DNA of 64,000 nt from positions 265,798 to 329,797 of IMG/VR virus record IMGVR_UViG_3300031992_004563. The stretch is one strand, 5' to 3'. Under the pieces are notes generated by a model. The model was not told the DNA's origin. It saw only the letters and a list, made by a program, of their open reading frames with translations, and ran no database searches. The position numbers and the translations under genes were made by a program. Source of the stretch: a virus (lineage: Duplodnaviria; Heunggongvirae; Uroviricota; Caudoviricetes). Shown one piece after another: positions 3,701 through 45,074 of this stretch (within the stretch, counting starts at the first letter, position 1; each line of letters begins with the position of its first letter).

Positions 3701-4140
3701 CTTTCTACATGTTTAGTTTGATTTAATTTTCGTATATTGCTAAACCTCAAACTAGCCAACAATATCTTAAGCTATTATAATTTCAAATTTGTTTAATAGC
3801 ATCACAAATTCTAATATCCAATATTTCTGCACCACTATAATCAATTCACCCTTGGATTATGGGTTTGAGTGATGTATGGTGAAATTACCTTGTAACTTCA
3901 TTAAGCGTGATCTTACTGTACTTCAGATCAAGCAGCCATAGCGTATTCATCTTCGCCATTTATTATTTTCAAAGAACATTTATTAGACGCATATCTTTAT
4001 GGCGTCACATGCTTACAAATCAAAATCAATGCAGTCAAAACCAAATAGACCCATAATTTTAATTTATATATTTATTATAAACAAAAACTGTAAAAAGTTT
4101 CAAAAATAAATATAAAAATAAAAATTTATTTTTGAATAAA

Positions 4141-13141: not shown

Positions 13142-13158
13142 AATTTTGTAATTTTTTG

Positions 13159-13232
13159 TACCTCGAGTGGGATTCTAACCCACAACTCCCATCTTAGAAG
13201 GATGGTACTCTATACAGTTGAGTTATCGAGGC
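13159..13232 (-). tRNA. tRNA-Arg (anticodon UCU, reads AGA)
   Basis: The minus strand reads GCCTCGA-TA-ACTC-AACTGTATA-GAGT-A-CCATC-CTTCTAA-GATGG-GAGTT-GTGGG-TTAGAAT-CCCAC-TCGAGGT-A. Acceptor, D, anticodon and T stems all pair, and loop positions 34-36 are TCT. Confidence 0.7.
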
Positions 13233-15231: not shown

Positions 15232-18006
15232 ATGGTATATAAAAATTTAGGTTTGCCTGCTACATTAATTCATAGTGTTAATGGCAAGAAATATACTTTA
15301 AATGGAAAATTATTGGCAGTTAATGAATCTTCAAAAACATGTACAATGCAATTTGGAGATAAGCAAAGTGAAAATATTCCATTAACAGAAGTATATTTAA
15401 ATGAAGCTGCATTATCAGATCTTATTAAAAAGACTGGTAAAAAACTTAAAGATGTTGCTGGCAAATTATGGGAAAAAATTAAAGGAATTGCTAAAATTGT
15501 TGGTGGTTGGTTAGTTCCAGTTGATCAAGATGGAAATGAGTTAATTCAATACATTAATAACCCACTTAACTTAGCAGTAATGCCACTTCCTTCATCAATT
15601 TCATATGCTCCATCAGAAAGAACAATTGCATTATGTGAAGAAAATGGTGCTAAAGTTCGTAACACTGGTTCATTAGATGAAGCTTTTGGATCATTAATTG
15701 ATAATGATAAAAGCCAAATTGAGACTTATTGGTCAAGAGTAATGAAGGAATATGTTAAAAATGAAAGTTTAACATTAAGTGATACAGTTAAATTGGTTAA
15801 TGAATCATATTATCAACGCGAAACAATTGATGGCACAGAACCAATTAATGAAGCGGTGGTTTCATTAAAATCACCAAATGAAAGAATGTATGGACGTTTT
15901 GTAAATACAAATGAATTAATTAAATTAATTACAGACAATATTTTCCACCAAATGCATCCATTATATGTTCATAAAAAAGGTGATAGTTATGTAAAACCAC
16001 TTTTAATTTGGGGTGCTCCTGGTATTGGCAAAACAGCCGTTATTAAACAAGCTGCTAAATTTATGAAAGAAAACTATAATACCAAGCTTGATCTTGTTAC
16101 TATGGCATGCGGTGGTATTAAAGTGGATGACTTCAGTTTGCCAGATACAGCTAAAAACCAATATGGTCAAGAAATTGCAGTTGAAATTCCAAAAACATGG
16201 TTACCTGTATATGATATCGATGGTTTATCAAAAGAACAAATTGAAAGACTTGATGCTTTTTATAATAGTGGTAAATATCGTATTAGAGACTTTATGTCAG
16301 ATGACCTTAAAGATAGAAAAGATAAAAATGGTGAAAATGTTTTAAGCTTGGAAGATAATGGTGTTGGTGAATCATATGATGGTGGTATTTTATTCTTCGA
16401 TGAGTTTGCTCGTTTACGTCAACAAAAAGTAATGGATGTAATGATGACTCTTTGTGGTGATAGAACATACCAAAAAATGATTCTTGCATCAGGTTGGTCA
16501 ACAATTGCAGCTGCAAACCGTCTTACAGATGATAAACTTCCTGAAAATAATGTAGACTTCCGTTCTTTATGGGGTGAAGCAATGAAAACTCGTTTCACAC
16601 ACTTAACATTTGTTCCAACAAAAGTTGAATGGTTAAGATGGGCAAGAGAAGTCAATGAAGATGGATACCAAAATGTTGATGAATTAATTTGTAAATTTAT
16701 TGAAAAATCACCAGATGGTGTTTGGTATGATGCATTAGACTTTGGTTCAAGAGAAATTGCAGATCCAGATGTTGCAAGAATTCTTGGTGTTGATGCATCT
16801 TCCAAAGGCGCGAAGGGTGGTTCAAGTTCAAATGGAACATGGGGTACTAATGATTTAACACGTGATGAATTAAGAAAAGTTTCTAAATACAATTCAGATG
16901 TAAATGCAAATGTTGATAACATGGAAATGATTGCATGGAATGGCCGTACATGGGATCAAAAAATCTCACGTGTATTCTTAAGTGGTTTACGTCAATTATT
17001 CTATGGACATCCAGATTGGTACGAAGATTGCTTCTCAACACAAAAACGTGTTCGTGAATTAAATGGTGGTGCAAGTTCAGAAGAATATATTGTTAAAAAT
17101 ATAGATGTCAATAAATTAAAAACTCAATTAAATAAAGTTCCAAGAGATAGATGGTTCAATTGGACAAAAGGTATTTATGAAAAAATTGATCCAAGCCAAA
17201 ATTCAAGAAATAATGATAGATATGATTTCTTAATGAAATATCTTGGATATATTATTGAATCTGAAACAGGTAAAGGTGGTGTTCCAAGTAAAGCATGGGA
17301 TCATTATAACAGTATTGATTCAGTTATTGATGAAATTGATATCCGTGAAATTTATAATAAAGGACAACTTAGAAGCACAGCTGCAAGAAGAGATGATAAT
17401 ATGTTATTTGATACAATGGCAGATTATAGTCAAGCAACAGCTGTTAACTGGAAATCTAATATTGCAAATGTTGATGAAGTTATTTCTATTGTATTAGATG
17501 CACTTCCAAAATACATTACAGTTGATGAAATTATTAAAGATCAAAAACGTATTGAGAAATTTGCAGGTAAATATGCTGCTACTCCTGCTGATTTACAAAT
17601 GTTTAAAGATGAATATACTTTGCATTTAACAGATGAAAATGGAAAAGAAATTAAAACTGTTCCAACATTATTCTCAAAAGCACTTGAATATAATGAAGAT
17701 CTTGAAGAAAGAGTAACATTTGTATTAAAACAATCAGGTGTTGCTAAAAAACTTGCAAATGTTGCAATGTGGATTTCAAAAGTTGCAATTCAAATTAATC
17801 AAAATACTCCTATTACAGCTGCACTTGGTATTGAAGGTGAAGCAACCGATGGAACACTTGCAGATAGAGTATATAAGATTATGGAAGGCAATCAAGAAGC
17901 AATGGCATTCTATGAAAAAGATTCAGAAATTAGAAAATATAGAATCATGGATCCTGCAATTGTAATTTTGAAAGCAATGAGATTCTATAGAGAATCACAA
18001 CAATAA
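15232..18006 (+). CDS. Large AAA+ ATPase (MoxR/CobS/AAA_5-like); no in-frame TAG
   Basis: 924-aa uninterrupted ORF. Walker A LLIWGAPGIGKTAV, Walker B GGILFFDEFARL and a sensor-1-like motif STIAAANR. Confidence 0.75.
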   Translation: MVYKNLGLPATLIHSVNGKKYTLNGKLLAVNESSKTCTMQFGDKQSENIPLTEVYLNEAALSDLIKKTGKKLKDVAGKLWEKIKGIAKIVGGWLVPVDQDGNELIQYINNPLNLAVMPLPSSISYAPSERTIALCEENGAKVRNTGSLDEAFGSLIDNDKSQIETYWSRVMKEYVKNESLTLSDTVKLVNESYYQRETIDGTEPINEAVVSLKSPNERMYGRFVNTNELIKLITDNIFHQMHPLYVHKKGDSYVKPLLIWGAPGIGKTAVIKQAAKFMKENYNTKLDLVTMACGGIKVDDFSLPDTAKNQYGQEIAVEIPKTWLPVYDIDGLSKEQIERLDAFYNSGKYRIRDFMSDDLKDRKDKNGENVLSLEDNGVGESYDGGILFFDEFARLRQQKVMDVMMTLCGDRTYQKMILASGWSTIAAANRLTDDKLPENNVDFRSLWGEAMKTRFTHLTFVPTKVEWLRWAREVNEDGYQNVDELICKFIEKSPDGVWYDALDFGSREIADPDVARILGVDASSKGAKGGSSSNGTWGTNDLTRDELRKVSKYNSDVNANVDNMEMIAWNGRTWDQKISRVFLSGLRQLFYGHPDWYEDCFSTQKRVRELNGGASSEEYIVKNIDVNKLKTQLNKVPRDRWFNWTKGIYEKIDPSQNSRNNDRYDFLMKYLGYIIESETGKGGVPSKAWDHYNSIDSVIDEIDIREIYNKGQLRSTAARRDDNMLFDTMADYSQATAVNWKSNIANVDEVISIVLDALPKYITVDEIIKDQKRIEKFAGKYAATPADLQMFKDEYTLHLTDENGKEIKTVPTLFSKALEYNEDLEERVTFVLKQSGVAKKLANVAMWISKVAIQINQNTPITAALGIEGEATDGTLADRVYKIMEGNQEAMAFYEKDSEIRKYRIMDPAIVILKAMRFYRESQQ

Positions 18007-18031
18007 TTATTAAAAATAATTAAATTTGAAT

Positions 18032-18060
18032 AAAGGCATATTTTATTAAAGTATGCCTTT
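18032..18060 (+). terminator. Hairpin terminator (AAAGGCATA…TATGCCTTT)
   Basis: Inverted repeat directly after the ATPase stop codon. Confidence 0.5.
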
Positions 18061-18101
18061 ATTTATGTAAAATAAATATAAAAAATATTAAATAGAAAAA
18101 T

Positions 18102-19127
18102 ATGTCATCTATATTTAATGGGCAATTTGGAAAAAATACTACAGATGATCAAAAACGTACATATCAATGGCATGAAGATCAAGAGACACGATCAAAATAC
18201 CAATATAAAGAAAGATATAAAAGTATAAATATTTCCAAAATATTAGAAGATAAAATTCCATTAACAAGTGGTGGATATATAACAATTAAACCTGCAGCTA
18301 TTGCAGATGATGTCAAGTTAATGATGGATGAAATGAGGCGAGATCCAAAATATGAATTTATTAAGCCTTATATTCAAAAACCTGTTATTTGGACATATGA
18401 AATAGGTGCAGCATTAACAGATGGTATTCGTATTTATATGTCACCAATATTTGCAGCAACATTACTTAGTTCAAATCCTAGAACTGGTATGGGTGGTAAA
18501 GAAGCAGATGAATTTTGGAATAATTTAAATCCTACCGAACAACGTGATTCTAAAAACCGTGCACAATTCAGAATGATGAAAACTAAATATGTTAGATTTG
18601 CAATTATTCATGAAGTTTATCATATCATATATAATCACGTTAGACGTGGTATTCTTAAATATGGTTCAAATCCAACTAAACAAGAACATGATGTTGGTAA
18701 TATTTCAATGGACCTTGAAATCAATAGAGATATTGAATCAACTTTTCCAGATTTAAGAGGCTCAACAGAAAAAATTGGTGCAATATGGTATATGCATGAA
18801 AAATTCTTTAATAAAAATGGTAAGCCATTTATTAAAGATATTTGGGAAGATATATGGGATGATTTTATGAATAGAAATAAAGATTTTGATCTTTCTGATC
18901 CATTTGCAAATGAAGGAGCAAATCCTGTTCAAGAAGATAAAACTAAACAAGGCCCATTTGCAGATGGTTGGAGAAAAGCTGTTGATGCAATTAAAGGTAA
19001 AATGATTGATCCACGAACATTTAATATACCGGGTGGCTCTGGTACAATTAGTGGAAATATTAAAGACGCTTTAGACCAAATATTTAAAGCTGCCGCTGAA
19101 GGAAATGGTGTAGAAGATGAAGACTAA
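18102..19127 (+). CDS. Putative zinc metallopeptidase-like protein (HExxH: FAIIHEVYHIIYNH)
   Basis: 341-aa ORF without TAG. The HEVYH motif lies in a helix-like context. Its position between the AAA+ ATPase and the VWA protein recalls DUF2201-type metallopeptidase+VWA proteins that pair with MoxR ATPases. Confidence 0.5.
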   Translation: MSSIFNGQFGKNTTDDQKRTYQWHEDQETRSKYQYKERYKSINISKILEDKIPLTSGGYITIKPAAIADDVKLMMDEMRRDPKYEFIKPYIQKPVIWTYEIGAALTDGIRIYMSPIFAATLLSSNPRTGMGGKEADEFWNNLNPTEQRDSKNRAQFRMMKTKYVRFAIIHEVYHIIYNHVRRGILKYGSNPTKQEHDVGNISMDLEINRDIESTFPDLRGSTEKIGAIWYMHEKFFNKNGKPFIKDIWEDIWDDFMNRNKDFDLSDPFANEGANPVQEDKTKQGPFADGWRKAVDAIKGKMIDPRTFNIPGGSGTISGNIKDALDQIFKAAAEGNGVEDED

Positions 19128-19147
19128 AAATAATAATTAATTATTAT

Positions 19148-21727
19148 ATGAAAAAAGAAAAGATTAATACTGATAGATTATTTGGAAAGCCTTTAAACGA
19201 AACAGACATTTATTAGGTTCCACCAACAGATGAAAATGGAAATGTTCATATGTTTTCAATTGATTAGCTTGCTGCAATTTATGAAGCAATGAAGCCATTA
19301 TTAAATGCATAGGAATTATAGGATTTTAATGATATGTCTCCTGAAGATTAGGAACAATATTTAACAGGCTTTGGTGCAAATATATTAGAATGGAAAAAAG
19401 CTAAAGAAGCAGCAAATGATCCTGACTCAGACGAATAGAAACCTGGTATGCCAGGACAACAACCACCAGAAGATGGTTTAGACCATTGGCAACCAGTAAA
19501 AAAATCAAAAAATAAAAGTCAACAAGGATAGCAACCAAAAGGCAATAAAGTTTATTCAGATATTCAAGAAGAACTTGATAAAATTGAATAGGAAAATCAA
19601 TAGGCTGAATAGGATGCAGAAAATAGTAACAATCAATCTGCTGATAGTAGTGATGCATAGGATATTGCAGATAACGCAAATGATATTGCATCTTCTGCAC
19701 AAAAAATGGCAGATGCAGCTTAGGCCGCTGCTGATGCTGCACAAAATGCGGCAGATTAGGCAGATGAAAATGCTCGTGATTCCGGCTCACCAAAGGATGT
19801 AAGAAATGCTGATAGATCTTAGAATTCAGCAGATGCTGCATAGGATTTAGCAAATCAAGCAAAAGAAGCAGCTGAAAGAGCATCTCAATTAGCAAAGGAT
19901 GCATAGGAAGCTGCTGATAGAGGTGATACATTAGAAGCTGAAAGAAAAACTAAAGAAGCGTATGATGCGGCTAAAGAAGCATCTAATAAAACTAGAGCCG
20001 CATAGATAAATGCAAAAGATGCATTAAATGCAAGTAAATAGACAGCACAAAATCAACCTGGCCAAAATGGTCAAGGACAATCAGGTCCAGGTCAAAATGG
20101 TCAAGGACAATCAGATAGTGATATTAATAATATGTCTGCATAGGATGCTGCTAATGCTGCTCAACAATCTGCTACAAATGCTCAAAATTAGGCAAATCAA
20201 GCATAGGCAGCCGCTGATGCAGCATAGGAAAAAGCAGATACATCTGGAAGTTCGGCTGATTAGGCAAAAGCAGATGCGGCTCAATAGGCAGCCGATAATG
20301 CTCAATCAGCTGCTGATTAGGCATAGGCCGCTGCTAATGCTGCTCAACAGGCAGCCGACAATGGAAATACATCTTCAGCACAACAATAGGCAAAAAATGC
20401 AAGAGATGCTGCAAATAGTGCTCAACAATATGCTCAGTCTGCTCAATAGAATACTGGACAATCTGGTCAACAATCTTCACAAATGTCAGGAGGCGAATCA
20501 GGTCAGAAAGGACAAAACAGTGAATAGGGTTCTGGCCAAGAATCTAATTCACAAGGCCAAAGCCAAGCTGGTTCAAATTCAGGTCAATTAGATCCAAATG
20601 GACGTCATGGATAGATTGGTAAACCTGGACAATAGGGCCAACAAGGACAACCTGGTGATATGGATGATGCCGATACAGACCCAACATTAAAAAAGGTTGA
20701 TAATAAATTTGACCAAAATGGCGAAATTGTTCATAAAAGGCCTGTAAGTCTTGATATGCCATTTGATGGAAATGATTTTGTTGCAAATGATGAAGAAATG
20801 AGAGAAAAATGTCGTGAAATGGCAGAACGTGCAGGTCAGCCACTTGACGCAGATGATTATATTTCTCCACAAGAATATGCTACAAGAAAATATCAAGAAG
20901 CAAAATCTGCATTACAAAAATGGAAACAAAATACACCTGGTTCTGCTGGTAATCCTCCTGGATATCTTACAGAAGTAATGGATAGATTATTTGCTACAGA
21001 AATTGATTGGCGTGATTTAGTTCAAGAATTTATGACAGATAAATCACCTGAAGATATTATTGATGTATGGTCTAAACGCCGTATGGGATTGCCTGATACA
21101 CACCCATTCCATAGAGGAAGATATTTGCATCCTTATGAAGATTTTGAAGAAAGAAGATCAGGTATTGCACAAGTATTCTTCTTAGTGGATGCATCTGGTT
21201 CTATGGGTGTAACTGCAGGTGATGGCAGAAATATATTTGAACATATTATGTCAGAACTTATTCAAATTGAATTATAGGTTAAAATTAAACGTTCTGCATA
21301 TGCAACATTTAATGCTGGTCATATTTATAGAGATGATATTTTCACTTGGACATATCAAGATGCAATGGATGAAGAATCATTAATGGAAGAATTTAAATTA
21401 CCTTCTGCTGGTGGTGGAACATCTGCAATAGAGGGTATTAAATCTATTCAAGAATATGAAGATGTATATAGTACAAATGACCCATGGACATTATTAATTG
21501 TAGTAACTGATGGTGGTGACTATTATGAAGGATTAAAAGATATTTGTAAAGACCCAGAATAGGTTGAACATATGTTATGGATTATAACAGCCGAAGGCGA
21601 AGATTATTTTAAAGGCAGAATTAAAGCTTTAGGTGAACAAGGTGTTCCTAGTGATCATATTGTATGTGTAGATATTAATAAAGAATGGGGTGTAGATGAA
21701 GAAATGGTTAAAAAGAGCAAAAGATAA
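19148..21727 (+). CDS. von Willebrand factor A (VWA/MIDAS) domain protein with a long N-terminal Ala/Gln-rich low-complexity region; about 40 in-frame TAG codons
   Basis: ATG at 19148 is in frame 2 with track ORFs 20660-21277 and 21365-21562, and there are no TAA or TGA codons until 21725-21727. The MIDAS motif VFFLVDASGSMG is present. TAG codons replace CAA/CAG in parallel AAQ-AADNA repeats. Confidence 0.65.
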
Positions 21728-23752: not shown

Positions 23753-24149
23753 TATATGAATTACAAGCGCATCCAATTTTTGAATTGGGTGTTTGCTCGT
23801 TTTTCAATTAGTTTTCATTTTTAGAAGGAGTGGCTTGTGAAAGTCATTCCTTTGTTTATATAATAAACAAAACAATATATAAATCGTATAATAATCAAGA
23901 TATAGTGTTTTTATGATAATAAATAAACTGAAAAATGAAAACTAATTTTAATGAAGATAAATGAATTTATCAATATTGCTAAAGAATTTATTATAACACA
24001 ATATAATAGATTTATTGTTTTTGTTAAAAATGTGTTTAATAAAAAACCTAAAATAAATAAACAAACAGATAACAATGACATTCATATTGTAAAAGTTAAA
24101 GTTAAAAATGTCAAAGTTAAAATTAAATGAAAACTAATTTATAAACAAT

Positions 24150-25241
24150 ATGGCACAAACTAGATTTTTTCAACATTTAAATGAGAATGAAAGTGATTTT
24201 CAAAAAGTGACTACATTGGAATATATTGATAATTCTGATGGTTTTTCTATGTATTATTTTAAAGATGGATCTAAATGTAATAAAACTTATATTGCACCTG
24301 TAAATGCTAATTCAATTGAAGGATTTGAATTTGCAGAGGTTACAAGTCCTGGTAATGTATGGAAACTAAAAAAAGTTATTCCTGTGCAAGAAAAAAGGCA
24401 AACAGCTGTTAATGCAGATGGTGTTTTAGTAGAAGCTCCTACATGGGAAGAATTTACAAATAGTAAAGCAGAACGTAAAACACGCGTAGATGTTTTAGGA
24501 AAACCATTAAAGGTTGATAATTATGAAATTCCAAATGATAGTGATTATTCTGTACAAGCTTATATGGATGCATTAAAAACAAAACCTAAAACTGCACCTG
24601 TACCTGCGCCTGCACAATCATTTGATTTTAATAATGATACACAAAAATCTGCAAAAAAAGTTGAAACACAAAAGCCTGAATTGCTTAATAAACTTGCTGA
24701 AGTATCAGTTGTAGATGATACAATGTATATTTATATGGATCCATTTATAAAAAATGTTAAAAATGTTGAATTTATTTTTGAAAACAAAAATCGTTGTGAA
24801 ATGACAGCCGATGAGTTTATAGATAATGCATTAACACCAAAAGAAGAAAAAGTTGTTGAAAAAGTCGTTGAAAAAGAAGTTGTAGTTAAAACATCTGATA
24901 CAGATATTGATCTTGGAATTGATAATGTTCAAAAAGGTTTATTAGACAATATGATTGATATGTCTAATAAAATGGAATGTGCAATTGATATGGAATTAAC
25001 TTTAAAACTTCCACCATCATCTGTTTATAAACTTATTAAATCGGTTTATCCTGAAGGAATGGATAAAGGGTTTGTTAATATTCTTGCAAATAGAATGCAG
25101 GTTAAAGAGCTTAAAGAATCTGTGGCTGAAGGATTATTAGCATTTTATGACGATGAATATAATAATGAAGATTCTAATAAAAATAATGGTAATGATTCTA
25201 ATATTACCGATACTGTTAAAAAACCAGGTCGTAAAAAATAG
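24150..25241 (+). CDS. Hypothetical protein; ends with TAG then TAA two codons later
   Basis: 363-aa ORF. TAG 25239-25241 is followed by ACA GTA TAA. Confidence 0.5.
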   Translation: MAQTRFFQHLNENESDFQKVTTLEYIDNSDGFSMYYFKDGSKCNKTYIAPVNANSIEGFEFAEVTSPGNVWKLKKVIPVQEKRQTAVNADGVLVEAPTWEEFTNSKAERKTRVDVLGKPLKVDNYEIPNDSDYSVQAYMDALKTKPKTAPVPAPAQSFDFNNDTQKSAKKVETQKPELLNKLAEVSVVDDTMYIYMDPFIKNVKNVEFIFENKNRCEMTADEFIDNALTPKEEKVVEKVVEKEVVVKTSDTDIDLGIDNVQKGLLDNMIDMSNKMECAIDMELTLKLPPSSVYKLIKSVYPEGMDKGFVNILANRMQVKELKESVAEGLLAFYDDEYNNEDSNKNNGNDSNITDTVKKPGRKK

Positions 25242-25292
25242 ACAGTATAATATTTCATTATAAATAATAAAAATCATTTTTTAGTTTTATTA

Positions 25293-25763
25293 ATGAATAC
25301 AATATATATGACATCTGATAGTGAGAATAAGTTGAGGTCAATATATACAAATTTAAAAAACTATTATATATTAGATGTATAGTCTTTTATAAAAAGTTTA
25401 AATTTGGATATGAATAAACAAAGTAGTATATTCATTATTAATGATGAAATACAAACTTTAGTGAGTTCATAGTTGAAACTTAAAAAATATAAAGGTGTCA
25501 TATATATTAATCATCATTTATCAAAAGAATTATACAATTCATTTAAACTTTATTTTTAGAAATGTGGAGAAGATATTAAAATTGTCTTAATTGACAATGG
25601 ATAGTTTCCAAAGCATTAGGATATAATGGATATATTTGATGAAGTTATTTTCTATGAAAGATTTAGAAAAAATAAAATCGTAGAATTTAATGGTTTTGAT
25701 AAAAATCAAAATGACGTCATTAATAATATTAATATGGATGAAAATGATTTAGGCGATGAATAA
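25293..25763 (+). CDS. Small hypothetical protein with 5 in-frame TAG codons
   Basis: ATG at 25293. Frame 0 is open to TAA 25761-25763 apart from the TAGs. TAATG overlap with the next gene. Confidence 0.4.
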
Positions 25764-27907
25764 TGAAATACTTTACATTTGAATAGTTTAGTCGTTCTGA
25801 TACAGCAAAAAGGAAAAATATAGATAATTCTGTTCCGTCTGATCTTAGACCACATGCTGAAGAATTAATTAATAATATATTAGATCCTTTACGTGATGCG
25901 TGGGGTAGTGATTTATATTTAACCTCTGCCTATCGTGGTTATGCACTTAATAAAGCTGTAGGTGGTTCTACGACATCTGCACATTCTTATGCGTATGCAG
26001 CTGATTTAGTTCCAAAAAATGGAAAAACTCTTGAATTTAAAGAGTTTGCAATGAAATGGCTTCTTAATAATGGAGTCAATTTTGATTAGTTTATTGATGA
26101 ATATAGTGGAAAAAGTTCATGGGTTCATATAGGTATTCGTAATGGTAGTGGAAATTAGAGAAAACAATATTTAAAATACCTTAATGGAAAATACACATCA
26201 ATTAATCCAAATATATATAAGCCTGGTTCTAACTCACAATCTTCTACGTCATCTGCGTTACCAAGTTTTGGTGGTTCATCTTCTAGTTCTTCACAATCAA
26301 CAGGAATTAATGTTACTGAAATAACAACCGGTGGCAGTACACAAACTGGTAGCACTGAAGGATTATTAAAAGGTCGTTCAGTCTATTTAAAAGATATAGA
26401 TTATGAAGGCATTAAAGCAAACGATGTTTTTGCAAAAGATGAATCAGGTGAGCCATTGCTTGATGAAAATGGAGATTTTATTATTTCTGACGCATATTTA
26501 ATGGATGGTGCAAATGAATCTGAATCTGATGCTATTGAAAGCACTGATGAATTAGATCCAGAACCATTTGATTTTGATATGTCATCTATTACTATTGAAA
26601 ATACTGAATAGATGAAAGGCATTCAATATAATGCCGATGGTTCATATGTTGTTAAATAGAGTAAAACCATTCAAGAAATAATGGCATTAGTTCAACAATG
26701 GTGGCAAATGATTCAATCTTTAAAGAAAATTGATTTTAAACATATTTAGGATTCAATTAAAAACGTAAAAGCAGAGACTGAAAATGCAGAGACTCCATCT
26801 ATTAATGCAATGGTTTATATGAAAGCAGCATTCGATATGTATGGACATGCATATAGAGAAGGAATGACTTGCCCAATTTGTGGAAAGAAAGCAAGATTTT
26901 TACCACCTGGTGGATATTGTTCCATTGAGTGTTTGTTAAAAGCTGTAAAAGATAAATCACTTGCATTTCTAATGTCTCCTAATGATAAGTATGGTTGGCT
27001 TCAAGAAATTATTGATCAATTATGTGCGGTATTGGATTTAACAAATTTATTAATTAATTCAATAGTATTAATTCCTGACATTATTAGAGAATTGGCATAG
27101 CTTCCATAGGAATATAAAGATTATGTATAGGCAAAAATTGCTGAAGGGTTTGCAGAATTATAGGAATTAATTCAAAAAGCAATGGTTAAGAAAAATGAAT
27201 TGCTTGCAAAAATATTAAAACCTATTAATTTTGGTATTATTGCAAAACCTGTTGCAATGGCAATGCAGGTAATTGAAGTTATTAGAAATGCATTATAGGT
27301 TGCATAGGAAGCATTTAATATGGCATTTGATGTTGTTAAAATGATATTAAGTAAATTATCATTACCAAGTGTTGCACCAGGATTAGTTCTTCCAGCAGAA
27401 TCATTTGCGTGGTCATTAACTCCAAGATCATTTATAAGCCCAATGCCATATACATGCCCAGATGCAGGTAAAATATTTGTGGTTTTGCCTGGTGGCAGCG
27501 GTGCACCTATACAGGGTTTAAAACCTTTGTTGCCATCAGCACTATAGGATCTTAATATGGAATCAATAGATTCAGTAATTTAGGGATTATTTCCACCATT
27601 AACGCCAATGGATTATTATTTAGAGCCAGAATTATTTCAAATAAGATATCTGTTCAGTGATCAAAGTGATTTAGTTTTTTAGATTAGGCAACAATTAGAA
27701 GATTTTTTAAGATGCGGTCCAGATTATCTTCCAAAATTTGAAAATTTATTACCAATTAAAATGTTTACATTTGGAAAAGGCACACCTAATGAAATATAGA
27801 TTCCACTTCCAAATATGGGATATTTATGGTTTTTATTAGGATTACTGGATGCATGGGCACCTCATAGCCAATCAATGGTAGGAAGTATATTAAATCCTGC
27901 AATATAA
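25763..27907 (+). CDS. Large protein with an N-terminal peptidase M15 (D-Ala-D-Ala carboxypeptidase/lysin-like) domain; many in-frame TAGs; candidate tail-associated lysin or tape-measure-like protein
   Basis: Motifs LTSAYRGYALNKAVGGSTTSAHSYAYAADL match the Zn-dependent M15/VanY-type fold. Track ORFs 26810 and 27320 and the TAGs at 25784 and 26087 are all in frame 2. Terminates at TAA 27905-27907. Confidence 0.55.
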
Positions 27908-27909
27908 TA

Positions 27910-27938
27910 AAAGGAATGCACTAGAATGCATTCCTTTC
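27910..27938. terminator. Bidirectional hairpin (AAGGAATGCA…TGCATTCCTT) between convergent genes
   Basis: Perfect 10-bp inverted repeat. Confidence 0.5.
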
Positions 27939-27966
27939 TGTTTATATATAAACTATTACTATTAAC

Positions 27967-28296
27967 TCAATACCCAAGTTCTGCGCCTAAAGCTGACATT
28001 ACTAATGATGAAGTCATCAATTTTCCTAAAGTTCCATTTTGATCAATGCCAAGTATCTTACAAATTGCTTTCATAATTGCCGGCCCAATTGTTGCACCTG
28101 CAACACCACCAAGAAGTGCAGTAAATAACCCTTCATCCATCACATCGTCTATTGACTTTCCTTCTTCCTATGCAATTGCAGCCGATTCAACAATATAGTT
28201 AAAAAGCTTCTTTGCATTTTGAACTTCTTTTACTGAAACTTTACTTAAATCTACTCCTTCAAATAATTCATTAGTTGCATGTGAATGCTAAATCAT
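27967..28296 (-). CDS. Small Gly/Ala-rich hydrophobic protein with two in-frame TAGs (possible membrane protein)
   Basis: Minus-strand ATG at 28296, TGA stop at 27967-27969, 110 codons. Segment LLGGVAGATIGPAIMKAI. Confidence 0.3.
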
Positions 28297-29708: not shown

Positions 29709-29803
29709 TTCAAGACACTTTATTTTAATTATAATAGTTCAATTATTTAAATTGTTTAAATTCACTAGAGTGTATCTAAATTATAATAGTAATTAATTTA
29801 ATA

Positions 29804-30877
29804 CTACCATATAGCTTTAAATATTTCAACTACATTATTTTTAGTATCATCAAAAGATTTTTTAACAGTGTTTTTTATAACTGTTCCTGCCTCTTTTAAT
29901 TCTCCTAAATCTGATTTACTTAATTTAAAATCAGTTGAACTACTTTTCTTTTTAGCAAATTTTCTTCCGCCTGACATATATTTTTCTTCTAATGTCATAT
30001 CATTAGATATTTTTGTACTCATTATAAGAGACATATGTTGTTCACCATATTTATTGACCAATTTATTCCATTGTTTTTCAGTAAATACTCTATTGCCAAT
30101 ATTATATGTCGGGTGTTGTTCACTATATTGATTATCATAATAAACCTTTGTTGTATTTTTACCATCTGAAACTATAAAATATAATACCATTTCATATACA
30201 TCATAACCAACATTTTTAATTGTCCATTTTACATATGATGTAGTATAATTAATTTTCTTTTTAGTATTAATATCTGTTTCATATGAGTTATTATAAAAAG
30301 GTGCATATGATTCTTCTAAGAACATTCCGTATCCATTTGTTGCAAAAACCAAATTTGTTCCAATAAGAGACTTTAAATAATTATAGTGTTTTTCAACAAT
30401 GAAAGGAAAATTCTCCATATCAATTCGTGTATATTTCTTTTCACCATTGCATATATATTTAACTTTTTCTCCTGTATTCAAATCAGTTAAATATAATACC
30501 CAATCATCATAGTCTTCAATACGTTTAACATCATTAACATAAAATCTATGTCCTTCTATCCAACGTTTATGCGTACCGGCAACCATACCATCTAAATAAT
30601 TAAACGCATCATATTTATATTGATTTGCTGTATACATTAAACCAAAGTCTTCTTTCCAAAATCTGTCATAATCCATAAAATTATGATAGTGCTCTATAGG
30701 TTGATCAAACAAATCAGTATAATTTGAACCGGTTAAAGGAACAAGATATAATGTTTCACCTTTTAAAGATGAAATGTTTTTAAACTGATAATTTGTTTCT
30801 TTGTTAAAAGACGAATTTGCAAATACACAAATAATATTTAAACAATAGACCGAAAAAATTAAAAAAAGGCGTTTCAT
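29804..30877 (-). CDS. Secreted hypothetical protein (signal peptide)
   Basis: N-terminal MKRLFLIFSVYCLNIICVFA. Promoter motif upstream. Confidence 0.5.
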   Translation of the reverse strand: MKRLFLIFSVYCLNIICVFANSSFNKETNYQFKNISSLKGETLYLVPLTGSNYTDLFDQPIEHYHNFMDYDRFWKEDFGLMYTANQYKYDAFNYLDGMVAGTHKRWIEGHRFYVNDVKRIEDYDDWVLYLTDLNTGEKVKYICNGEKKYTRIDMENFPFIVEKHYNYLKSLIGTNLVFATNGYGMFLEESYAPFYNNSYETDINTKKKINYTTSYVKWTIKNVGYDVYEMVLYFIVSDGKNTTKVYYDNQYSEQHPTYNIGNRVFTEKQWNKLVNKYGEQHMSLIMSTKISNDMTLEEKYMSGGRKFAKKKSSSTDFKLSKSDLGELKEAGTVIKNTVKKSFDDTKNNVVEIFKAIW

Positions 30878-31012: not shown

Positions 31013-32965
31013 TTACTTCACCTCTTTAAACTCTACATTATCCTTTTTAGATTTTGTATGTTTTACAGGTTCTTCTGTTGAAGGTGTTTCAACCTCTACT
31101 GGAATTTTTGATTCCTCTGGCTTTGGCAACGATGTTGTAGGTTGATTTTTACCAAGAAGATTCAAAATTTGAGGTTTAAGACCATCATTAACCATGCTAA
31201 CCATTGGAGCAAACTTCTCAAGCCAAGTCTTAGCAAATTCAGCGCTTGTATTCTTATCACCATAAACTGTAACATTGCCAAGTTGAATATGTTCAAGAGT
31301 CTTAGATTGTGCTTCAGCAATACCCTTCCATTGATCAGTCATCATATATTGAACAACTACCTCAGGATTTCCACCAGCGGTTTCAACCATTTGCTTAAAT
31401 GCAAGTGCTGGTGCCAATGCAATTTGTTGTTGCTGTTCAGCCTCTGCCATAAGAGATGCTCGTTTACCCTCAGCTTGTGCAAGCAAAATAGATTTTTCAC
31501 CTTCTGCATCTGCAAGTTTCTTTTTACGAATTGCTTCAGCTTGTGCTTCAGCCTCTTTCAAAATTTTTGCAGCGGCTGCTTCTGCCTCAAGTGTTGCAAC
31601 AGCCTTTGTCTGTTCAGCTTTAATTGTTGCTTGCTCTTTTTCTTTTTGAGCCTTAACAATCATTGTTGCTTGTAACTCGGTTTCTTGAGCTTTAGCCTTC
31701 ATTTCATTAACTTTCACTTGTTGTTCTTGCTCAGTTTGTGCAACGGCCATTCGAGCTTCAACCTTTGCCATACCAGTAACCTTTTCTGCTTCTGCCTCAG
31801 CCTTGCCTGCTTCTGCTTTTGCTTTAGCAACATCAATAGTTGCGGTCTGTTCTGCTACACCTGCCTTTTTATTAGCCTCTGCTGCTTTTTGACGGCGTTC
31901 AGATTCATATTCAGCAATGCTTGCTTGTTTCTTTTGAGTTGCCTCAGAAATCTTTGCCTCTTTTAATTGTTCTGCCTCAGCTGCTTTTGCTTCAGCATCA
32001 GCCTTTGCTTTAGCAACATTAACAGCTGCAATGGATTCTTGCTCTGCTTTTGCAGAATCAGCTTTTTGACCAGCAGTAGCAACTGCAATTGTTTGTTCTG
32101 CCTCAGCGTCGGCAACACCTTCAGCACGTTCCTTTTCAGCTTGCGCCAATTGAATTGCCTGATCCTTACGAGCTTGTGCAACTGCAACCTCTTGTTCCTG
32201 AACTGTTTTAGCAACTGTTGCCAATTGTTCACGCTCAGCCTCTGCAACTTGAATTGCTTCCTCCTTTTTAGTATTGGCAATTTTAATTTTACCTTGCTTT
32301 TCTTGCTCTGCAATATCTGCTTCTGCTTGCGCCTTTGCTTGAGTTGCGGCTTTCTTACCCAAGTTTACAATATAGTTTGCGTCATCATCAATATTAGAAA
32401 TATTAATATTAATAATACCAAAACCAACTTTATTCAACTCCAACTCAATCTTTTGCTTTGCATTCTCAAGGAACTTATTACGGTCAGCGTTAATTTCCTC
32501 AATAGGCATTGTTGCCATAATAGCACGAGTTTCACCAATAAGAATATCCTCAATTTGGCTATCCATTGCTCGTACATCAGAACTTAAGAAACGAGCTGCT
32601 GCATTTTGCATAAGGGTATCAGTTGTTCCAATACCAGTAATCAATGTTACAGGAATAGTTACTTTAATGTTTTGTGAAGATAGACCTGTAATATCGGCTT
32701 TAATCTTGTGAGGTACTAAACTCATCATTTTATATTCCTGGATAACTGGCCATACAAAAGTACCACCGCCATGAATAATTTTTGATGTAAGGATACGATC
32801 TACAGATTTACCATTTTCATCAAATGATTTCTTTGTGCCAGCCTTACCAAATACTACAAGAATTTGGTCACTCGGGCAACGACGATAGCGAGATAAAATC
32901 CAAATAGTTGTCAAAACAACCACAAGTACAATAACTGCTACAGTAATAAAAATTGATACATTCAT
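31013..32965 (-). CDS. Flotillin-like SPFH/band-7 domain protein with a long Ala/Glu/Gln-rich coiled coil
   Basis: N-terminal TM helix, an SPFH-like domain, then an EA-repeat flotillin-type region. 650 aa. Antisense ORFs in this region are low-complexity artefacts. Confidence 0.75.
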   Translation of the reverse strand: MNVSIFITVAVIVLVVVLTTIWILSRYRRCPSDQILVVFGKAGTKKSFDENGKSVDRILTSKIIHGGGTFVWPVIQEYKMMSLVPHKIKADITGLSSQNIKVTIPVTLITGIGTTDTLMQNAAARFLSSDVRAMDSQIEDILIGETRAIMATMPIEEINADRNKFLENAKQKIELELNKVGFGIININISNIDDDANYIVNLGKKAATQAKAQAEADIAEQEKQGKIKIANTKKEEAIQVAEAEREQLATVAKTVQEQEVAVAQARKDQAIQLAQAEKERAEGVADAEAEQTIAVATAGQKADSAKAEQESIAAVNVAKAKADAEAKAAEAEQLKEAKISEATQKKQASIAEYESERRQKAAEANKKAGVAEQTATIDVAKAKAEAGKAEAEAEKVTGMAKVEARMAVAQTEQEQQVKVNEMKAKAQETELQATMIVKAQKEKEQATIKAEQTKAVATLEAEAAAAKILKEAEAQAEAIRKKKLADAEGEKSILLAQAEGKRASLMAEAEQQQQIALAPALAFKQMVETAGGNPEVVVQYMMTDQWKGIAEAQSKTLEHIQLGNVTVYGDKNTSAEFAKTWLEKFAPMVSMVNDGLKPQILNLLGKNQPTTSLPKPEESKIPVEVETPSTEEPVKHTKSKKDNVEFKEVK

Positions 32966-32998
32966 AATTTTTAAATATTTAAAAGTTTATAAAATTTG

Positions 32999-33523
32999 TT
33001 ATACATAAAATTTTCCATTATCAGCTGATATAATAATTACTTCATCGCCAAGTTTATGTTTTTCATTCAATGAATACACTTTAATTTCTTGACCATTGAA
33101 ATCTGGAATATTTACATAATATGCATTTTCTTCATCTGTGCATACAATTGAAACTACACCTTTATGCCCAATAAAATCTTCTGGTGTTTGACCAACAGGT
33201 TCATGCCGTAATTTGAGCAATAATATTCCTATATAAAATAGAATTACTGTAAATGCAATTCCAAGTACAATAGCAATCAAATAATCATACCAAACAAGTG
33301 TACCATTATATGATACTAATGACAACCATCCAGCAAAACCCATTAAGAAATGAATAATTCCTTTAAATGATAGAATATCACCCCATGACAAATCACCAAA
33401 TCCATCACCATCAAAGTCAATATCCGTATCAAAATCAGTTCCACCAAACATGGCAATAAAAAATTGAATAAGGAAAATTGAATAGGCTATAATAGCCAAA
33501 GAATAATAAATTGTTGTTAACAT
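32999..33523 (-). CDS. NfeD-like membrane protein (YuaF/YqiJ-type), the usual partner of SPFH proteins
   Basis: Polytopic N-terminus with a DxDxD-rich loop and a C-terminal soluble OB-like domain. Lies immediately upstream of the flotillin gene. Confidence 0.6.
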   Translation of the reverse strand: MLTTIYYSLAIIAYSIFLIQFFIAMFGGTDFDTDIDFDGDGFGDLSWGDILSFKGIIHFLMGFAGWLSLVSYNGTLVWYDYLIAIVLGIAFTVILFYIGILLLKLRHEPVGQTPEDFIGHKGVVSIVCTDEENAYYVNIPDFNGQEIKVYSLNEKHKLGDEVIIISADNGKFYV

Positions 33524-43691: not shown

Positions 43692-45071
43692 TTAAAATAA
43701 CTCTTCGCTTTTTGGCTTTTCTTTAGTCTTTGGCTTTGTTTCTTCTTCATCCTCAATAGGTGTATTATCCAATGCACATAATTCATTATAGTATTCATTT
43801 TCACCATCGTGGAAGCAGTCATCAACCATTTTTTGTGCAATAGAACGTGCATCACAATTTTTCTTAAATGCATCAAAAATCCTATTGCGTAACTCATCAT
43901 ACTTTTCTTTATTACTTGCAAGCTCATCCATTTGTGCAAGACATTCATCAAGATTTGATAAGTCCTTTTTAATGAATACACCAAGTCCTAATTCAAGTGC
44001 TGTTTTATTTAGACACTTTGTGTTTTCATCATACATACGACATGCATTACCTGCATTCCAATCTAACAATGGAATTGAACCCATTTGAATAATCTCAAAT
44101 ACTGAATATTCAAAATCATCTCCATAACATCCATCAGTTTTAAGATGGAAAAAGTCACATCCAAATGCAGACTTTGCAACGCATCTCATTCCTTCTTCAC
44201 GTTTATATGCATCAAATACATAACACCAACCTTTTTCACGTTTAGGGGTATCAAGCATTGGATCATCATATGCAATACCATTTTCTTCTCTCCACTTTTT
44301 ATCTGAAGCCATTATACAAGCCTTAGATGGAAGACGGTTTCCTTGCTCATCAAATGAATAAAGCAAGTCAGGAATTGTAGATACATTAATTGTACGTTTA
44401 ATACCACGCATTTCCAACTCATAATCATGTGCATAAAATTTATCACGACCACGAAGTAAACGAGTTGGGTCTTTAAATCCAGAATGACGACCAAGATAAG
44501 TTATTCGACGTAATTTCTCATCAAATGGAACCCATTGTTTCTTATCTTCATCTGAATAATTATGTGGAAGAATTAATTGAACAAAACGTTTTCTAAATTC
44601 TTCTTCACCACACGCTGCACAAATTTTTTGTGCTACCATTGCCTTTGGTGCAAATGTAATAATTTTATCAAATGCCAACCAAAATTCTGAATTATGCAAT
44701 AGTGGTCCATAATATGCAGCAAATCCCAATACATTATGATCATTACATACAATTGCTTTTCTTGTAGTAATTTTATTCATAACCAAATCCATCCAGAGAT
44801 TATGATATTTTTCATCTGCTTTTTTCTCCATAATGGAATTAATGATAACCAAATCAGCTTCATTAATATGATTAACTGTATTTTCAGAATAATCATATTC
44901 TACGGCGAATGGAATGCTTTGTGTGCCACCATCCATCTCAGCCTTTTCATGTGCTTTTACATAAATAACTTCAACTTCATGGCCAGCAAGCTTCAAGCCT
45001 TTATTTAATTCTATAACATATCGGGTTACACCAGAACCCTCAATGCGTGCCATCAATTGTACAATTTTCAT
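43692..45071 (-). CDS. Glycosyltransferase, GT4-like N-terminal domain
   Basis: N-terminus MKIVQLMARIEGSGVTRYVIELNKGLKLAGHEVEVIY is typical of GT-B/GT4 enzymes. Confidence 0.5.
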   Translation of the reverse strand: MKIVQLMARIEGSGVTRYVIELNKGLKLAGHEVEVIYVKAHEKAEMDGGTQSIPFAVEYDYSENTVNHINEADLVIINSIMEKKADEKYHNLWMDLVMNKITTRKAIVCNDHNVLGFAAYYGPLLHNSEFWLAFDKIITFAPKAMVAQKICAACGEEEFRKRFVQLILPHNYSDEDKKQWVPFDEKLRRITYLGRHSGFKDPTRLLRGRDKFYAHDYELEMRGIKRTINVSTIPDLLYSFDEQGNRLPSKACIMASDKKWREENGIAYDDPMLDTPKREKGWCYVFDAYKREEGMRCVAKSAFGCDFFHLKTDGCYGDDFEYSVFEIIQMGSIPLLDWNAGNACRMYDENTKCLNKTALELGLGVFIKKDLSNLDECLAQMDELASNKEKYDELRNRIFDAFKKNCDARSIAQKMVDDCFHDGENEYYNELCALDNTPIEDEEETKPKTKEKPKSEELF

Positions 45072-45074
45072 ATA

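What the first reader, a model, noticed from the sequence alone, without database searches (positions are those of the whole stretch)
25763..28296. TAG-dense M15 peptidase-domain giant protein followed by a small TAG-containing hydrophobic protein: a lysis or penetration module gated by suppression
The N-terminal 120 aa of 25763-27907 match Zn D-Ala-D-Ala carboxypeptidase/M15 lysin signatures. The rest is a long Ser/Gly-rich, TAG-rich extension, consistent with a tail-associated peptidoglycan hydrolase or tape-measure fusion. The convergent small gene 27967-28296 is Gly/Ala-rich and hydrophobic, and also contains TAGs. If the enzymes that breach the cell wall need amber suppression, lysis timing would be tied to suppressor tRNA expression.
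Basis: partly seen in the sequence, partly recalled or inferred. Interest (0 to 1): 0.55.

Follow-up and report, generated by a model that had tools for sequence, protein, structure and literature searches.

The report
Amber-recoded cell-wall peptidase fusion in megaphage
A giant gut phage related to the Lak megaphages carries a real gene, readable only if the stop codon TAG is decoded as glutamine, in which a zinc cell-wall-cutting enzyme is attached to a lineage-specific protein of unknown role; this is a new architecture of a known kind of phage enzyme, and the neighbouring small gene is not its partner.

Summary
The observation largely holds. Window 25763-27907 (+) is a genuine 714-codon gene with 16 in-frame TAGs, the first at codon 8. 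TAG reads as Gln. Residues 1-150 are a Peptidase_M15_3 domain with intact Zn ligands H74, D81 and H122. The rest is not a Ser/Gly-rich tail. It is a ~45-aa disordered linker, a small beta mini-domain, and a ~450-aa module (four-Cys zinc ribbon plus three-helix bundle) found only in Lak-like megaphages.

The first ~260 aa behave as a movable cassette. They are absent from the same gene in a close relative. In another megaphage they head two other, larger proteins; one was tested and is unrelated. In distant relatives a CHAP domain takes their place. Classical Lak phages carry a free-standing, TAG-free 151-aa M15 gene instead.

I judge a carrier-bound, probably particle-associated wall hydrolase most likely (about 0.5). 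A true endolysin is the main rival (about 0.3).

The small gene 27967-28296 is a highly conserved Lak core gene, but it is not a conserved partner. It is convergent, lies beyond a terminator, and sits about 125 kb away in Lak-A2.

Lysis gated by suppression is the published Borges et al. hypothesis and cannot be tested here. The capsid gene in this window has no TAG. Interest is modest.

The parts
24150..25250 (+). First large gene of the operon (366 aa, 1 TAG), function unknown. It is conserved and syntenic in Lak-A2.
   Evidence: ORF table. tblastn to L001 gives 32-33% identity. No PHROG hit. A terminator-like hairpin at 23824-23853 lies upstream.
25293..25763 (+). 156-aa gene of unknown function. 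TAG supplies 5 of its 8 Gln codons. Its TAA stop overlaps the ATG of the peptidase gene (TAATG).
   Evidence: 48% identity to the syntenic Lak-A2 ORF. No family hit.
25763..27907 (+). Whole peptidase-fusion gene, 714 codons plus TAA. In-frame TAG (Gln) falls at codons 8, 109, 132, 283, 299, 329, 446, 449, 456, 467, 512, 515, 595, 607, 640 and 679.
   Evidence: Among 43 database homologues, many are full length at 47-97% identity.
25763..26212 (+). Peptidase_M15_3 (LAS-type zinc peptidase) catalytic domain, aa 1-150. Key residues are R58, H74, D81, E113 and H122.
   Evidence: Pfam 2.1e-13. PHROG 894 at 3.6e-31. Invariant residues. Profile against 1LBU at E=2.1e-10. Model pLDDT ~88.
26213..26344 (+). 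Ser/Gly/Thr-rich disordered linker, roughly aa 151-194. It contains no TAG.
   Evidence: Sequence. pLDDT 25-31. Length varies among homologues.
26345..26548 (+). Small conserved beta-rich mini-domain, about aa 195-262. It always travels with the M15 domain as part of a ~260-aa cassette.
   Evidence: Conserved in the alignment. pLDDT 84-87 over aa 210-240. Shared with P0040 and the 1614-aa protein of L015. No match in phage GenBank records.
26549..27904 (+). Lak-lineage-specific carrier module, about aa 263-714. It comprises a helical N-part, a zinc ribbon, a three-helix bundle and an alpha/beta C-end.
   Evidence: 28-29% identity to Lak-A/B/C ORFs. Only 101 cluster representatives among 1.84 billion proteins. 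Model pLDDT 75. No informative fold match.
26870..26932 (+). Four-cysteine zinc ribbon, C370-x2-C373 ... C386-x3-C390 (CPICGKKARFLPPGGYCSIEC).
   Evidence: The four Cys are the only invariant columns across 48 family members. They are also invariant in the 55-sequence alignment.
26984..27358 (+). Three long antiparallel helices, aa 408-532.
27910..27937 (.). Terminator-like hairpin readable on both strands, between the convergent genes.
   Evidence: 11-13 pair stem with T-runs on both strands.
27967..28296 (-). 109-aa highly conserved Lak core protein with TAG at codons 3 and 43. It has an acidic N-half and a Gly/Ala-rich hydrophobic C-half. It is the last gene of the minus-strand block and is not part of the peptidase unit.
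   Evidence: 59% identity to Lak-A/B/C proteins located elsewhere in those genomes. 64 homologues, none with a Pfam domain. In relatives it is always preceded by the 54-57-aa and 125-133-aa genes, and by the GT25 gene wherever the locus extends that far.

Best explanation
The window is a fragment of a ~0.5 Mb Lak-like megaphage that reads TAG as glutamine in a subset of its genes. Gene 25763-27907 encodes a modular peptidoglycan hydrolase.

Its N-terminal LAS/M15 zinc peptidase is of the kind that small phages use as a free endolysin. A flexible Ser/Gly/Thr linker and a small beta mini-domain tether it to a ~450-aa lineage-specific module built from a zinc ribbon and a three-helix bundle.

The first ~260 aa are a movable 'lysin cassette'. 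In this lineage the cassette heads other, larger proteins as well, one of them tested and unrelated, and it can be present or absent on the same gene.

I infer that the carrier module places the enzyme in the phage particle (tail interior, tail tip or ejected proteins). The enzyme would then cut peptide stems or cross-links of the host murein locally during entry. It would not act as the soluble enzyme that bursts the cell.

The first TAG is codon 8, and two more TAGs lie inside the catalytic domain. Nothing functional can therefore be made until the phage's amber-decoding system is active, which confines synthesis to the recoded phase of infection.

Shown: the gene is real, TAG=Gln, the domain identity, the intact metal site, the cassette behaviour and the dependence on TAG decoding. 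Inferred: enzymatic activity, particle association, an entry role and timing.
For: Gene reality and code:
- TAG aligns mostly with CAA/CAG in five orthologues (71 of about 240 non-TAG codons, next GAA and AAA).
- Among the 43 homologues, many are full length.

Enzyme:
- Pfam and PHROG hits.
- R58, H74, D81, E113 and H122 are invariant, and the domain is 38-42% identical to the KS9 and B124-14 endolysins.
- The H-x6-D motif aligns to 1LBU.
- A PF08291 phage protein is zymogram-active (PMC10589892).

Cassette on carriers:
- The close relative L005 (carrier 76% identical, same synteny) lacks the cassette.
- In L015 the same cassette heads a 682-aa protein whose C-terminus is unrelated (hhalign probability 0.1).
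- In L015 it also heads an adjacent 1614-aa protein that ends in a hydrophobic segment, next to a gp2-like 'DNA end protector' hit.
- Distant carrier homologues bear N-terminal CHAP (three) or M15 instead.
- P0006 carries M15 plus a lysozyme domain.
- Many family members, including those of Lak-A/B/C, have no recognised enzyme domain and many are ~400 aa stand-alone. The carrier therefore has its own core function.

Size: proteins of 682-1614 aa are far above the ~130-150-aa free M15 endolysins of Gram-negative phages.

Gating: first TAG at codon 8 or 5 in all six orthologues.
Against: - The neighbours in the window are not recognisable tail or head genes.
- The catalytic domain's closest named relatives are endolysins.
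- Classical Lak phages have a free-standing M15 gene. No such free-standing copy appeared on the near-complete fusion-bearing contigs among the 120 listed hits. The fused copy could therefore be the only M15 enzyme there.
- No virion proteome exists for these uncultured phages.
Confidence: 0.5

Rival explanations
1. It is the phage's endolysin, the enzyme that destroys the wall from within at the end of infection. The C-terminal module would serve as a regulatory, targeting or oligomerising appendage. TAG codons would keep the enzyme from being made until the code switch, as in the Borges et al. model.
For: - The N-domain is 38-42% identical to endolysins. KS9 gp23 sits between a holin and an Rz spanin.
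- PHROG 894 is labelled 'endolysin'.
- Lak-A1 has a free 151-aa M15 gene and a bare carrier. The fusion-bearing ~490-kb contigs show no free copy among the listed hits, a complementary pattern.
- Recoded lysis genes are reported in other recoded phages.
Against: - A relative with a 76% identical carrier lacks the enzyme altogether.
- In one genome the same cassette heads two adjacent proteins of 682 and 1614 aa. That is not what a soluble endolysin looks like.
- No holin or spanin is recognisable nearby.
- Lak-A1's free M15 gene has no TAG, so gating is not conserved for this enzyme.
- The negative is weak. 48 hits were not listed and only the longest contig per cluster is shown.
Confidence: 0.3
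2. The peptidase gene and the small hydrophobic gene 27967-28296 form a two-component lysis cassette, with the small protein acting as the holin.
For: - The two genes are adjacent in the window and in several relatives.
- Both have an early TAG: codon 8 in the peptidase gene and codon 3 in the small gene.
- The small protein has a Gly/Ala-rich hydrophobic stretch with a Kyte-Doolittle maximum of 1.68.
Against: - The genes are convergent and separated by a bidirectional terminator-like hairpin.
- An unrelated gene lies between them in L007 and L010.
- They are about 125 kb apart in Lak-A2, with no shared neighbours.
- In every relative examined, the small gene is preceded by the 54-57-aa and 125-133-aa genes of the minus-strand block, with GT25 beyond them where the locus reaches.
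- It has no holin or other family hit.
- It has only one borderline hydrophobic segment and no charged C-terminus.
- It is retained next to the enzyme-less gene in L005.
Confidence: 0.05
3. It is a tape-measure protein, or a tape-measure fusion, with an embedded lysin motif.
For: - It contains long helices.
- Lysin motifs in tape-measure proteins are a known phenomenon (own knowledge).
Against: - No tape-measure HMM hit.
- The carrier is only ~450 aa, far too short to measure the tail of a ~0.5 Mb myovirus-type phage (own knowledge of the length rule).
- The helices are modelled as a compact three-helix bundle with a zinc ribbon, not an extended rod.
- No tail genes were recognised nearby.
Confidence: 0.03
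4. The TAG richness reflects relaxed constraint rather than selection for gating. On this view, TAG accumulates through CAG-to-TAG drift in an AT-rich genome in any gene translated after the code switch, and only early or very highly expressed genes are kept TAG-free. This concerns the 'gating' part only and is compatible with either role above.
For: - TAG positions turn over rapidly among orthologues, while the TAG share stays at 37-50% of Gln codons.
- CAG is almost absent.
- 52 of 75 ORFs are strictly TAG-free, including the capsid gene.
Against: - All six orthologues keep a TAG within the first 8 codons, at a different codon in L007.
- All seven clade orthologues of the small gene have TAG at codon 3.
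- Borges et al. report preferential recoding of lysis genes in other clades.
Confidence: 0.4

Closest known systems
Free-standing Peptidase_M15_3 endolysins of Gram-negative phages (Burkholderia phage KS9 gp23, Bacteroides phage B124-14 ORF017, Rhodobacter phage Jorvik gp3)
   Same: The catalytic domain is 38-42% identical and has the same SxxR, H-x6-D, QxIxE and WxH signature. Jorvik gp3 (PF08291) degrades cell walls in zymograms.
   Different: Those proteins are 130-185 aa and single-domain, and KS9 gp23 sits in a holin-endolysin-spanin cassette. Here the domain is the head of a 714-aa fusion with no recognisable lysis partners, and it needs TAG decoding.
Streptomyces albus G zinc D-Ala-D-Ala carboxypeptidase (PDB 1LBU, MEROPS M15A)
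   Same: It is the only solved structure found by sequence (profile E=2.1e-10). Chain R138, H154 and D161 align with R58, H74 and D81. That H154 and D161 are zinc ligands comes from my own knowledge.
   Different: Only the central ~55 residues align. The bond specificity of the phage enzyme is unknown.
Virion-associated peptidoglycan hydrolases on large structural or ejected proteins (T7 gp16 N-terminal transglycosylase, phiKZ gp181, T5 Pb2, staphylococcal HydH5). Named from my own knowledge; HydH5 also appeared as PMC3150257.
   Same: The architecture is shared: a wall-hydrolase domain grafted onto a much larger non-enzymatic protein. The hydrolase type is interchangeable (M15, CHAP, lysozyme) and dispensable in relatives.
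   Different: There is no sequence or fold relationship of the carrier to any of them. Particle association is not demonstrated here.
Lak-A/B/C megaphage orthologues
   Same: The carrier module is 28-29% identical and sits in the same upstream gene order. These phages also read TAG as Gln and carry a suppressor tRNA(CUA) and RF2, as reported in PMC6784885.
   Different: In Lak-A2 the carrier has a different N-terminus without a hydrolase. In Lak-A1 the M15 enzyme is a separate 151-aa TAG-free gene about 95 kb away.
Recoded lysis genes of crAss-like and Agate phages (Borges et al., bioRxiv 10.1101/2021.08.26.457843)
   Same: A wall hydrolase is strongly enriched in the reassigned stop codon, in a genome where many genes avoid it. 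The proposed consequence is the same: no product before the code switch.
   Different: The phage clade and enzyme family differ. Here the capsid gene is TAG-free and the enzyme is probably structural, so the link to lysis timing is weaker.

Membership tests
Peptidase M15 / LAS zinc peptidases (Pfam PF08291 Peptidase_M15_3) | Match to the family HMM above the curated cut-off | tested here: met
   50.8 bits against a cut-off of 23.2, E=2.1e-13, residues 3-98.
Peptidase M15 / LAS zinc peptidases (Pfam PF08291 Peptidase_M15_3) | First two zinc ligands, the H-x6-D motif | tested here: met
   H74 and D81 are invariant. They align to H154 and D161 of 1LBU.
Peptidase M15 / LAS zinc peptidases (Pfam PF08291 Peptidase_M15_3) | Third zinc ligand (C-terminal His) | tested here: met
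   H122, in the invariant W-x-H motif, is shared with the KS9 and B124-14 endolysins. Its assignment as a ligand rests on family knowledge, not on a structure superposition.
Peptidase M15 / LAS zinc peptidases (Pfam PF08291 Peptidase_M15_3) | Peptidoglycan-degrading activity | not testable with these tools
   This needs a zymogram or muropeptide analysis of the recoded recombinant domain.
Phage endolysin (functional class) | Encoded with a holin and spanin, or otherwise in a lysis cassette | tested here: not met
   No holin or spanin hit among the neighbours. The small adjacent gene fails the holin tests.
Phage endolysin (functional class) | Enzyme present in all close relatives at that locus (indispensable) | tested here: not met
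   L005 has the same gene without the M15 cassette.
Virion-associated peptidoglycan hydrolase | Hydrolase domain fused to a larger non-enzymatic protein, with interchangeable or dispensable hydrolase domains | tested here: met
Virion-associated peptidoglycan hydrolase | Carrier recognisable as a structural protein, or gene located in a structural module | tested here: inconclusive
   The carrier has no annotated relatives. The neighbours are unknown. In L015 a cassette-bearing protein sits beside a weak gp2-like hit at 3.9e-7.
Virion-associated peptidoglycan hydrolase | Presence in purified particles | not testable with these tools
   The phage is uncultured and no proteome is available.
Holin (for the small gene 27967-28296) | At least one clear transmembrane segment and a charged C-terminus | tested here: inconclusive
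   One borderline segment, Kyte-Doolittle maximum 1.68 over 19 aa. The C-terminus is uncharged (...GAELGY).
Holin (for the small gene 27967-28296) | Conserved linkage to the lysin gene | tested here: not met
   Convergent and beyond a terminator. Interrupted in L007 and L010. About 125 kb away in Lak-A2.
Tail tape-measure protein | Tape-measure HMM match and length commensurate with the tail | tested here: not met
   No such hit. The carrier is ~450 aa and is modelled as a compact bundle.
Genetic code 15 (TAG = Gln) recoded phage gene | In-frame TAGs in a conserved ORF that align with Gln codons in orthologues | tested here: met
Genetic code 15 (TAG = Gln) recoded phage gene | Suppressor tRNA(CUA) and RF2 in the same genome | not testable with these tools
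   Neither is in the 64-kb window: only tRNA-Arg(TCT) and a tmRNA were found. The rest of the genome is not available. Both are reported for Lak phages.

The most novel reading that the evidence does not exclude
The ~450-aa zinc-ribbon/three-helix module is a previously undescribed, megaphage-specific 'lysin carrier'. It would be a core protein of cell-envelope penetration, or possibly of lysis, that has repeatedly captured different wall hydrolases (M15, CHAP, lysozyme). The split arrangement in classical Lak phages and the fused arrangement in this clade would then form a Rosetta-stone pair, linking a protein of unknown function to murein degradation. In addition, the very early TAGs kept in every orthologue (codon 5-8 here, codon 3 in the small gene) would be a selected translational gate rather than drift.
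Probability: 0.2. Interest if true: 0.55.

Novelty: new variant of a known kind. Interest (0 to 1): 0.3.

Why it matters
Lak-like megaphages are uncultured, and most of their genes have no assigned function. This locus gives a specific, testable handle on one of them: a lineage-restricted core protein that is repeatedly joined to cell-wall hydrolases and so very probably acts at the host envelope. It also adds a clean data point to the debate on why phages reassign stop codons. In one 64-kb window a wall hydrolase uses TAG for 44% of its glutamines, while the major capsid gene and 51 other ORFs use none. The free-standing version of the same enzyme in Lak-A1 also uses none. The recoded N-terminal domain could be a candidate lytic enzyme against Prevotella. 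None of this overturns current understanding.

Tried and rejected
- Megablast of 12 kb around the locus against GenBank phages found no match.
- NCBIfam gave nothing for the three proteins of the locus.
- PDB sequence search with the C-terminal module gave nothing.
- Foldseek of the full-length model against PDB gave only helical noise, because the low-confidence helical part dominated.
- tblastn with the mini-domain region found no match in phage records.
- hhalign of the carrier profile against P0040's C-terminus found no relationship.
- I looked for homologues in the window of the L015 neighbours (RuvC-like, gp2-like) and found none.
- I looked for a suppressor tRNA in the window and in ten related loci and found none.
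- I checked whether TAGs near gene ends (24150-25250 and 29798-30877) are real stops. The first aligns with CAG in L002, so it is sense.
- I considered a transmembrane helix at aa 419-441 (Kyte-Doolittle 1.86). I rejected it because it is modelled inside the three-helix bundle and the Lak-A2 counterpart is less hydrophobic.
- I considered a pseudogene or non-coding reading. It is rejected by conservation and by the TAG/CAA exchange.
Full report
**What the window is.** The window has about 29% G+C. Reading TAG as sense lengthens several ORFs markedly. The C-terminal 440 aa of the focal protein, the small neighbouring protein and two upstream genes have their only named relatives in the Prevotella Lak megaphages, at 28-59% identity. 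Full-length homologues lie on metagenomic contigs of 470-498 kb. Megablast finds nothing in GenBank phages. The window is therefore a fragment of a Lak-like megaphage from a clade distinct from Lak-A/B/C.

**The observation.** 25763-27907 (+) is open for 715 codons with 16 in-frame TAGs and no TAA or TGA. Base composition gives a probability of about 3e-20 for that. Codon alignment with five orthologues (51-78% protein identity) shows TAG most often opposite CAA/CAG (71 of about 240 non-TAG codons). GAA and AAA come next, as expected for glutamine.

- Residues 3-98 match Pfam Peptidase_M15_3 at E=2.1e-13, above the curated cut-off.
- Residues 1-159 match PHROG 894 'endolysin' at 3.6e-31.
H74-x6-D81 and H122 are invariant in 17 homologues and in a broader set that includes two annotated endolysins and free-standing Lak-type enzymes.
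- A profile of these domains finds PDB 1LBU (zinc D-Ala-D-Ala carboxypeptidase) at E=2.1e-10, with H154 and D161 opposite H74 and D81.

The description of the remainder is inaccurate. Only about aa 150-205 are Ser/Gly/Thr-rich. That stretch is modelled as disordered and carries no TAG. Downstream lies a small well-modelled beta mini-domain. After it comes a ~450-aa module with a four-cysteine zinc ribbon, three ~37-residue helices and an alpha/beta end. At 714 aa the protein is not 'giant'.

**The C-terminal module.** It has no Pfam, PHROG, NCBIfam or PDB-sequence relatives. An exhaustive profile search of 1.84 billion representatives finds only 101. The four cysteines are the only invariant columns across 48 members. 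Fold searches of the carrier model return only generic three-helix bundles. Many family members are ~400 aa with no recognised enzyme domain. In Lak-A2 the syntenic gene has a different, non-enzymatic N-terminus. Three distant members carry an N-terminal CHAP domain. Another distant member carries M15. One close homologue carries M15 plus a phage lysozyme domain.

**The N-terminal cassette.**
- A close relative (L005, carrier 76% identical, identical gene order) has the gene without the first ~260 aa.
- In a 394-kb relative (L015) the same ~260-aa unit (M15, linker, mini-domain) heads a 682-aa protein. Its C-terminus shows no relationship to the carrier by hhalign.
- Immediately downstream in L015, the unit also heads a 1614-aa protein that ends in a hydrophobic segment.
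- This L015 pair is flanked by weak hits to a RuvC-like resolvase and a T4 gp2-like DNA end protector.
- Classical Lak phages have the M15 enzyme as a separate 151-aa gene about 95 kb from the carrier gene.

**Interpretation of function.** A wall-hydrolase head is interchangeable, dispensable in a close relative, and mounted on proteins of 682-1614 aa, one of them shown to be unrelated to the carrier. From general knowledge, that is the pattern of virion-associated hydrolases such as T7 gp16, phiKZ gp181 and staphylococcal HydH5. It is not the pattern of the 130-185-aa soluble M15 endolysins of Gram-negative phages. I therefore prefer a carrier-bound, particle-associated enzyme that opens the murein locally at entry (confidence about 0.5).

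The main rival is a true endolysin (about 0.3). The catalytic domain's nearest named relatives are endolysins. Among the 120 listed homologues of the Lak-A1 free enzyme, none sits on the near-complete fusion-bearing contigs. That negative is weak. Nothing here can settle particle association.

**The small gene.** 27967-28296 (-) is real and has TAG at codons 3 and 43. It is unusually conserved: 81-100% identical within the clade, where the peptidase protein is 47-97%, and 59% identical to Lak-A/B/C. It is not a partner of the peptidase gene, for these reasons:
- It is convergent and lies beyond a bidirectional terminator-like hairpin at 27910-27937.
- It is the terminal gene of a conserved minus-strand block of GT25, a 125-133-aa gene, a 54-57-aa gene and the 109-110-aa gene.
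- In two relatives another gene lies between it and the peptidase gene.
- In Lak-A2 it lies about 125 kb from the carrier gene, with unrelated neighbours.
- It has no family hits, one borderline hydrophobic segment and no charged tail.

**Gating by suppression.** What the sequence shows directly is this. The first TAG is codon 8, and two more (codons 109 and 132) lie in the catalytic domain. The only internal Met before codon 109 lies after H74 and D81. Under the standard code, therefore, nothing functional is produced. TAG supplies 16 of 36 Gln codons here, against 72 of 692 in the rest of the window (p=5.6e-7). 52 of 75 ORFs have none.

All six orthologues have a TAG within the first 8 codons, at a different codon in L007. 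The small gene has TAG at codon 3 in all seven clade orthologues.

The idea that such recoding delays lytic and structural proteins is published, and it includes Lak phages (Borges et al.). Lak genomes are reported to encode tRNA(CUA) and RF2. No suppressor tRNA lies in this window or in ten related loci.

Three observations temper the idea:
- The gp23-like major capsid gene at 62406-63926 has 0 TAG among 20 Gln codons.
- Lak-A1's free M15 gene has 0 TAG.
- TAG positions turn over quickly while the TAG share stays at 37-50% and CAG is nearly absent. That pattern also fits neutral CAG-to-TAG drift in genes translated after the switch.

**Operon context.** Terminator-like hairpins at 23824-23853 and 27910-27937 bracket a unit of 24150-25250, 25293-25763 and the peptidase gene. 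The last two genes overlap as TAATG. The first two are conserved in Lak-A2 but have no known function.

**Verdict.** The gene is real and correctly spotted, and the enzyme identification is correct. The architecture, a lysin cassette on a Lak-specific carrier, appears undescribed in the literature I could search. It is nevertheless a variant of a well-known kind. The 'module with a small hydrophobic protein' and the 'tape measure' readings are not supported. The regulatory idea is already published and cannot be tested here. Interest is modest.

Noticed in passing
window 3651-4052 (-): A full-length tmRNA gene: Rfam RF00023 at 81 bits, and ARAGORN gives tag peptide GEDEYAMAA. It sits in a phage that reassigns a stop codon. 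tmRNAs are reported in huge phages, but their role alongside TAG recoding is unexplored.
   Followed up: partly
window 62406-63926 (-): A T4 gp23-like major capsid protein (Pfam Gp23, 6.9e-33) with zero TAG among 20 Gln codons. It shares a window with genes that use TAG for 33-62% of Gln. This is a late, very highly expressed gene that is compatible with the standard code.
   Followed up: partly
window 15232-21727 (+): A three-gene set. It comprises a 924-aa AAA ATPase (PHROG 1297), a 341-aa protein with an HExxH-like motif, and an 859-aa protein with a VWA-like C-terminus. The N-terminal ~450 aa of the last protein are Gln/Ala/Asn/Asp low-complexity sequence containing 33 in-frame TAGs. The first two genes have no TAG.
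   Followed up: partly
window 31013-33523 (-): A 650-aa protein whose L005 orthologue is annotated Band_7 (flotillin/SPFH), followed by a 174-aa membrane protein that looks NfeD-like. Both are TAG-free. Membrane-scaffold genes are unusual cargo for a phage.
   Followed up: no
window 43692-46415 and 54190-56823 (-): Auxiliary genes, all TAG-free: a DNA alpha-glucosyltransferase-like protein, a C5 cytosine DNA methylase, a nicotinate phosphoribosyltransferase and a CCA-adding / poly(A) polymerase-family enzyme with an HD domain.
   Followed up: partly
window 4451-6601 (+): A 716-aa protein with 8 TAGs and repeats of the 'F..DIS.WDVS.V..M..MF' type. Similar repeat proteins flank the small-gene homologue in Lak-A2 (L006 6352-7737), and a DUF285 protein occurs in L015.
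   Followed up: no
window 13158-13232 (-): tRNA-Arg(TCT), the only tRNA in the window. There is no tRNA(CUA) suppressor here.
   Followed up: yes
L015 8001-14905 (394-kb contig ERZ12302819 NODE_4): Two adjacent genes (682 aa and 1614 aa) both begin with the same M15-linker-mini-domain cassette. The larger ends in a proline-rich hydrophobic segment. They are flanked by weak RuvC-like and gp2-like 'DNA end protector' hits.
   Followed up: partly
L014 3989-4444 (Lak-A1 MK250018.1 512461-512916): A free-standing 151-aa M15 peptidase gene in classical Lak phages. It has no in-frame TAG, lies on the opposite strand to its neighbours, and sits next to a 477-aa gene with 13 TAGs.
   Followed up: partly
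protein P0006 (918 aa): A close homologue (75% identity) with a Phage_lysozyme (PF00959) domain inserted between the M15 domain and the linker. It is a double-headed version of the same protein.
   Followed up: no
L006 4611-5861 (-), Lak-A2: A 416-aa protein with a long Gly/Ala/Val-rich hydrophobic stretch lies divergently next to the small-gene homologue in Lak-A2. It may be functionally related to the small conserved protein.
   Followed up: no
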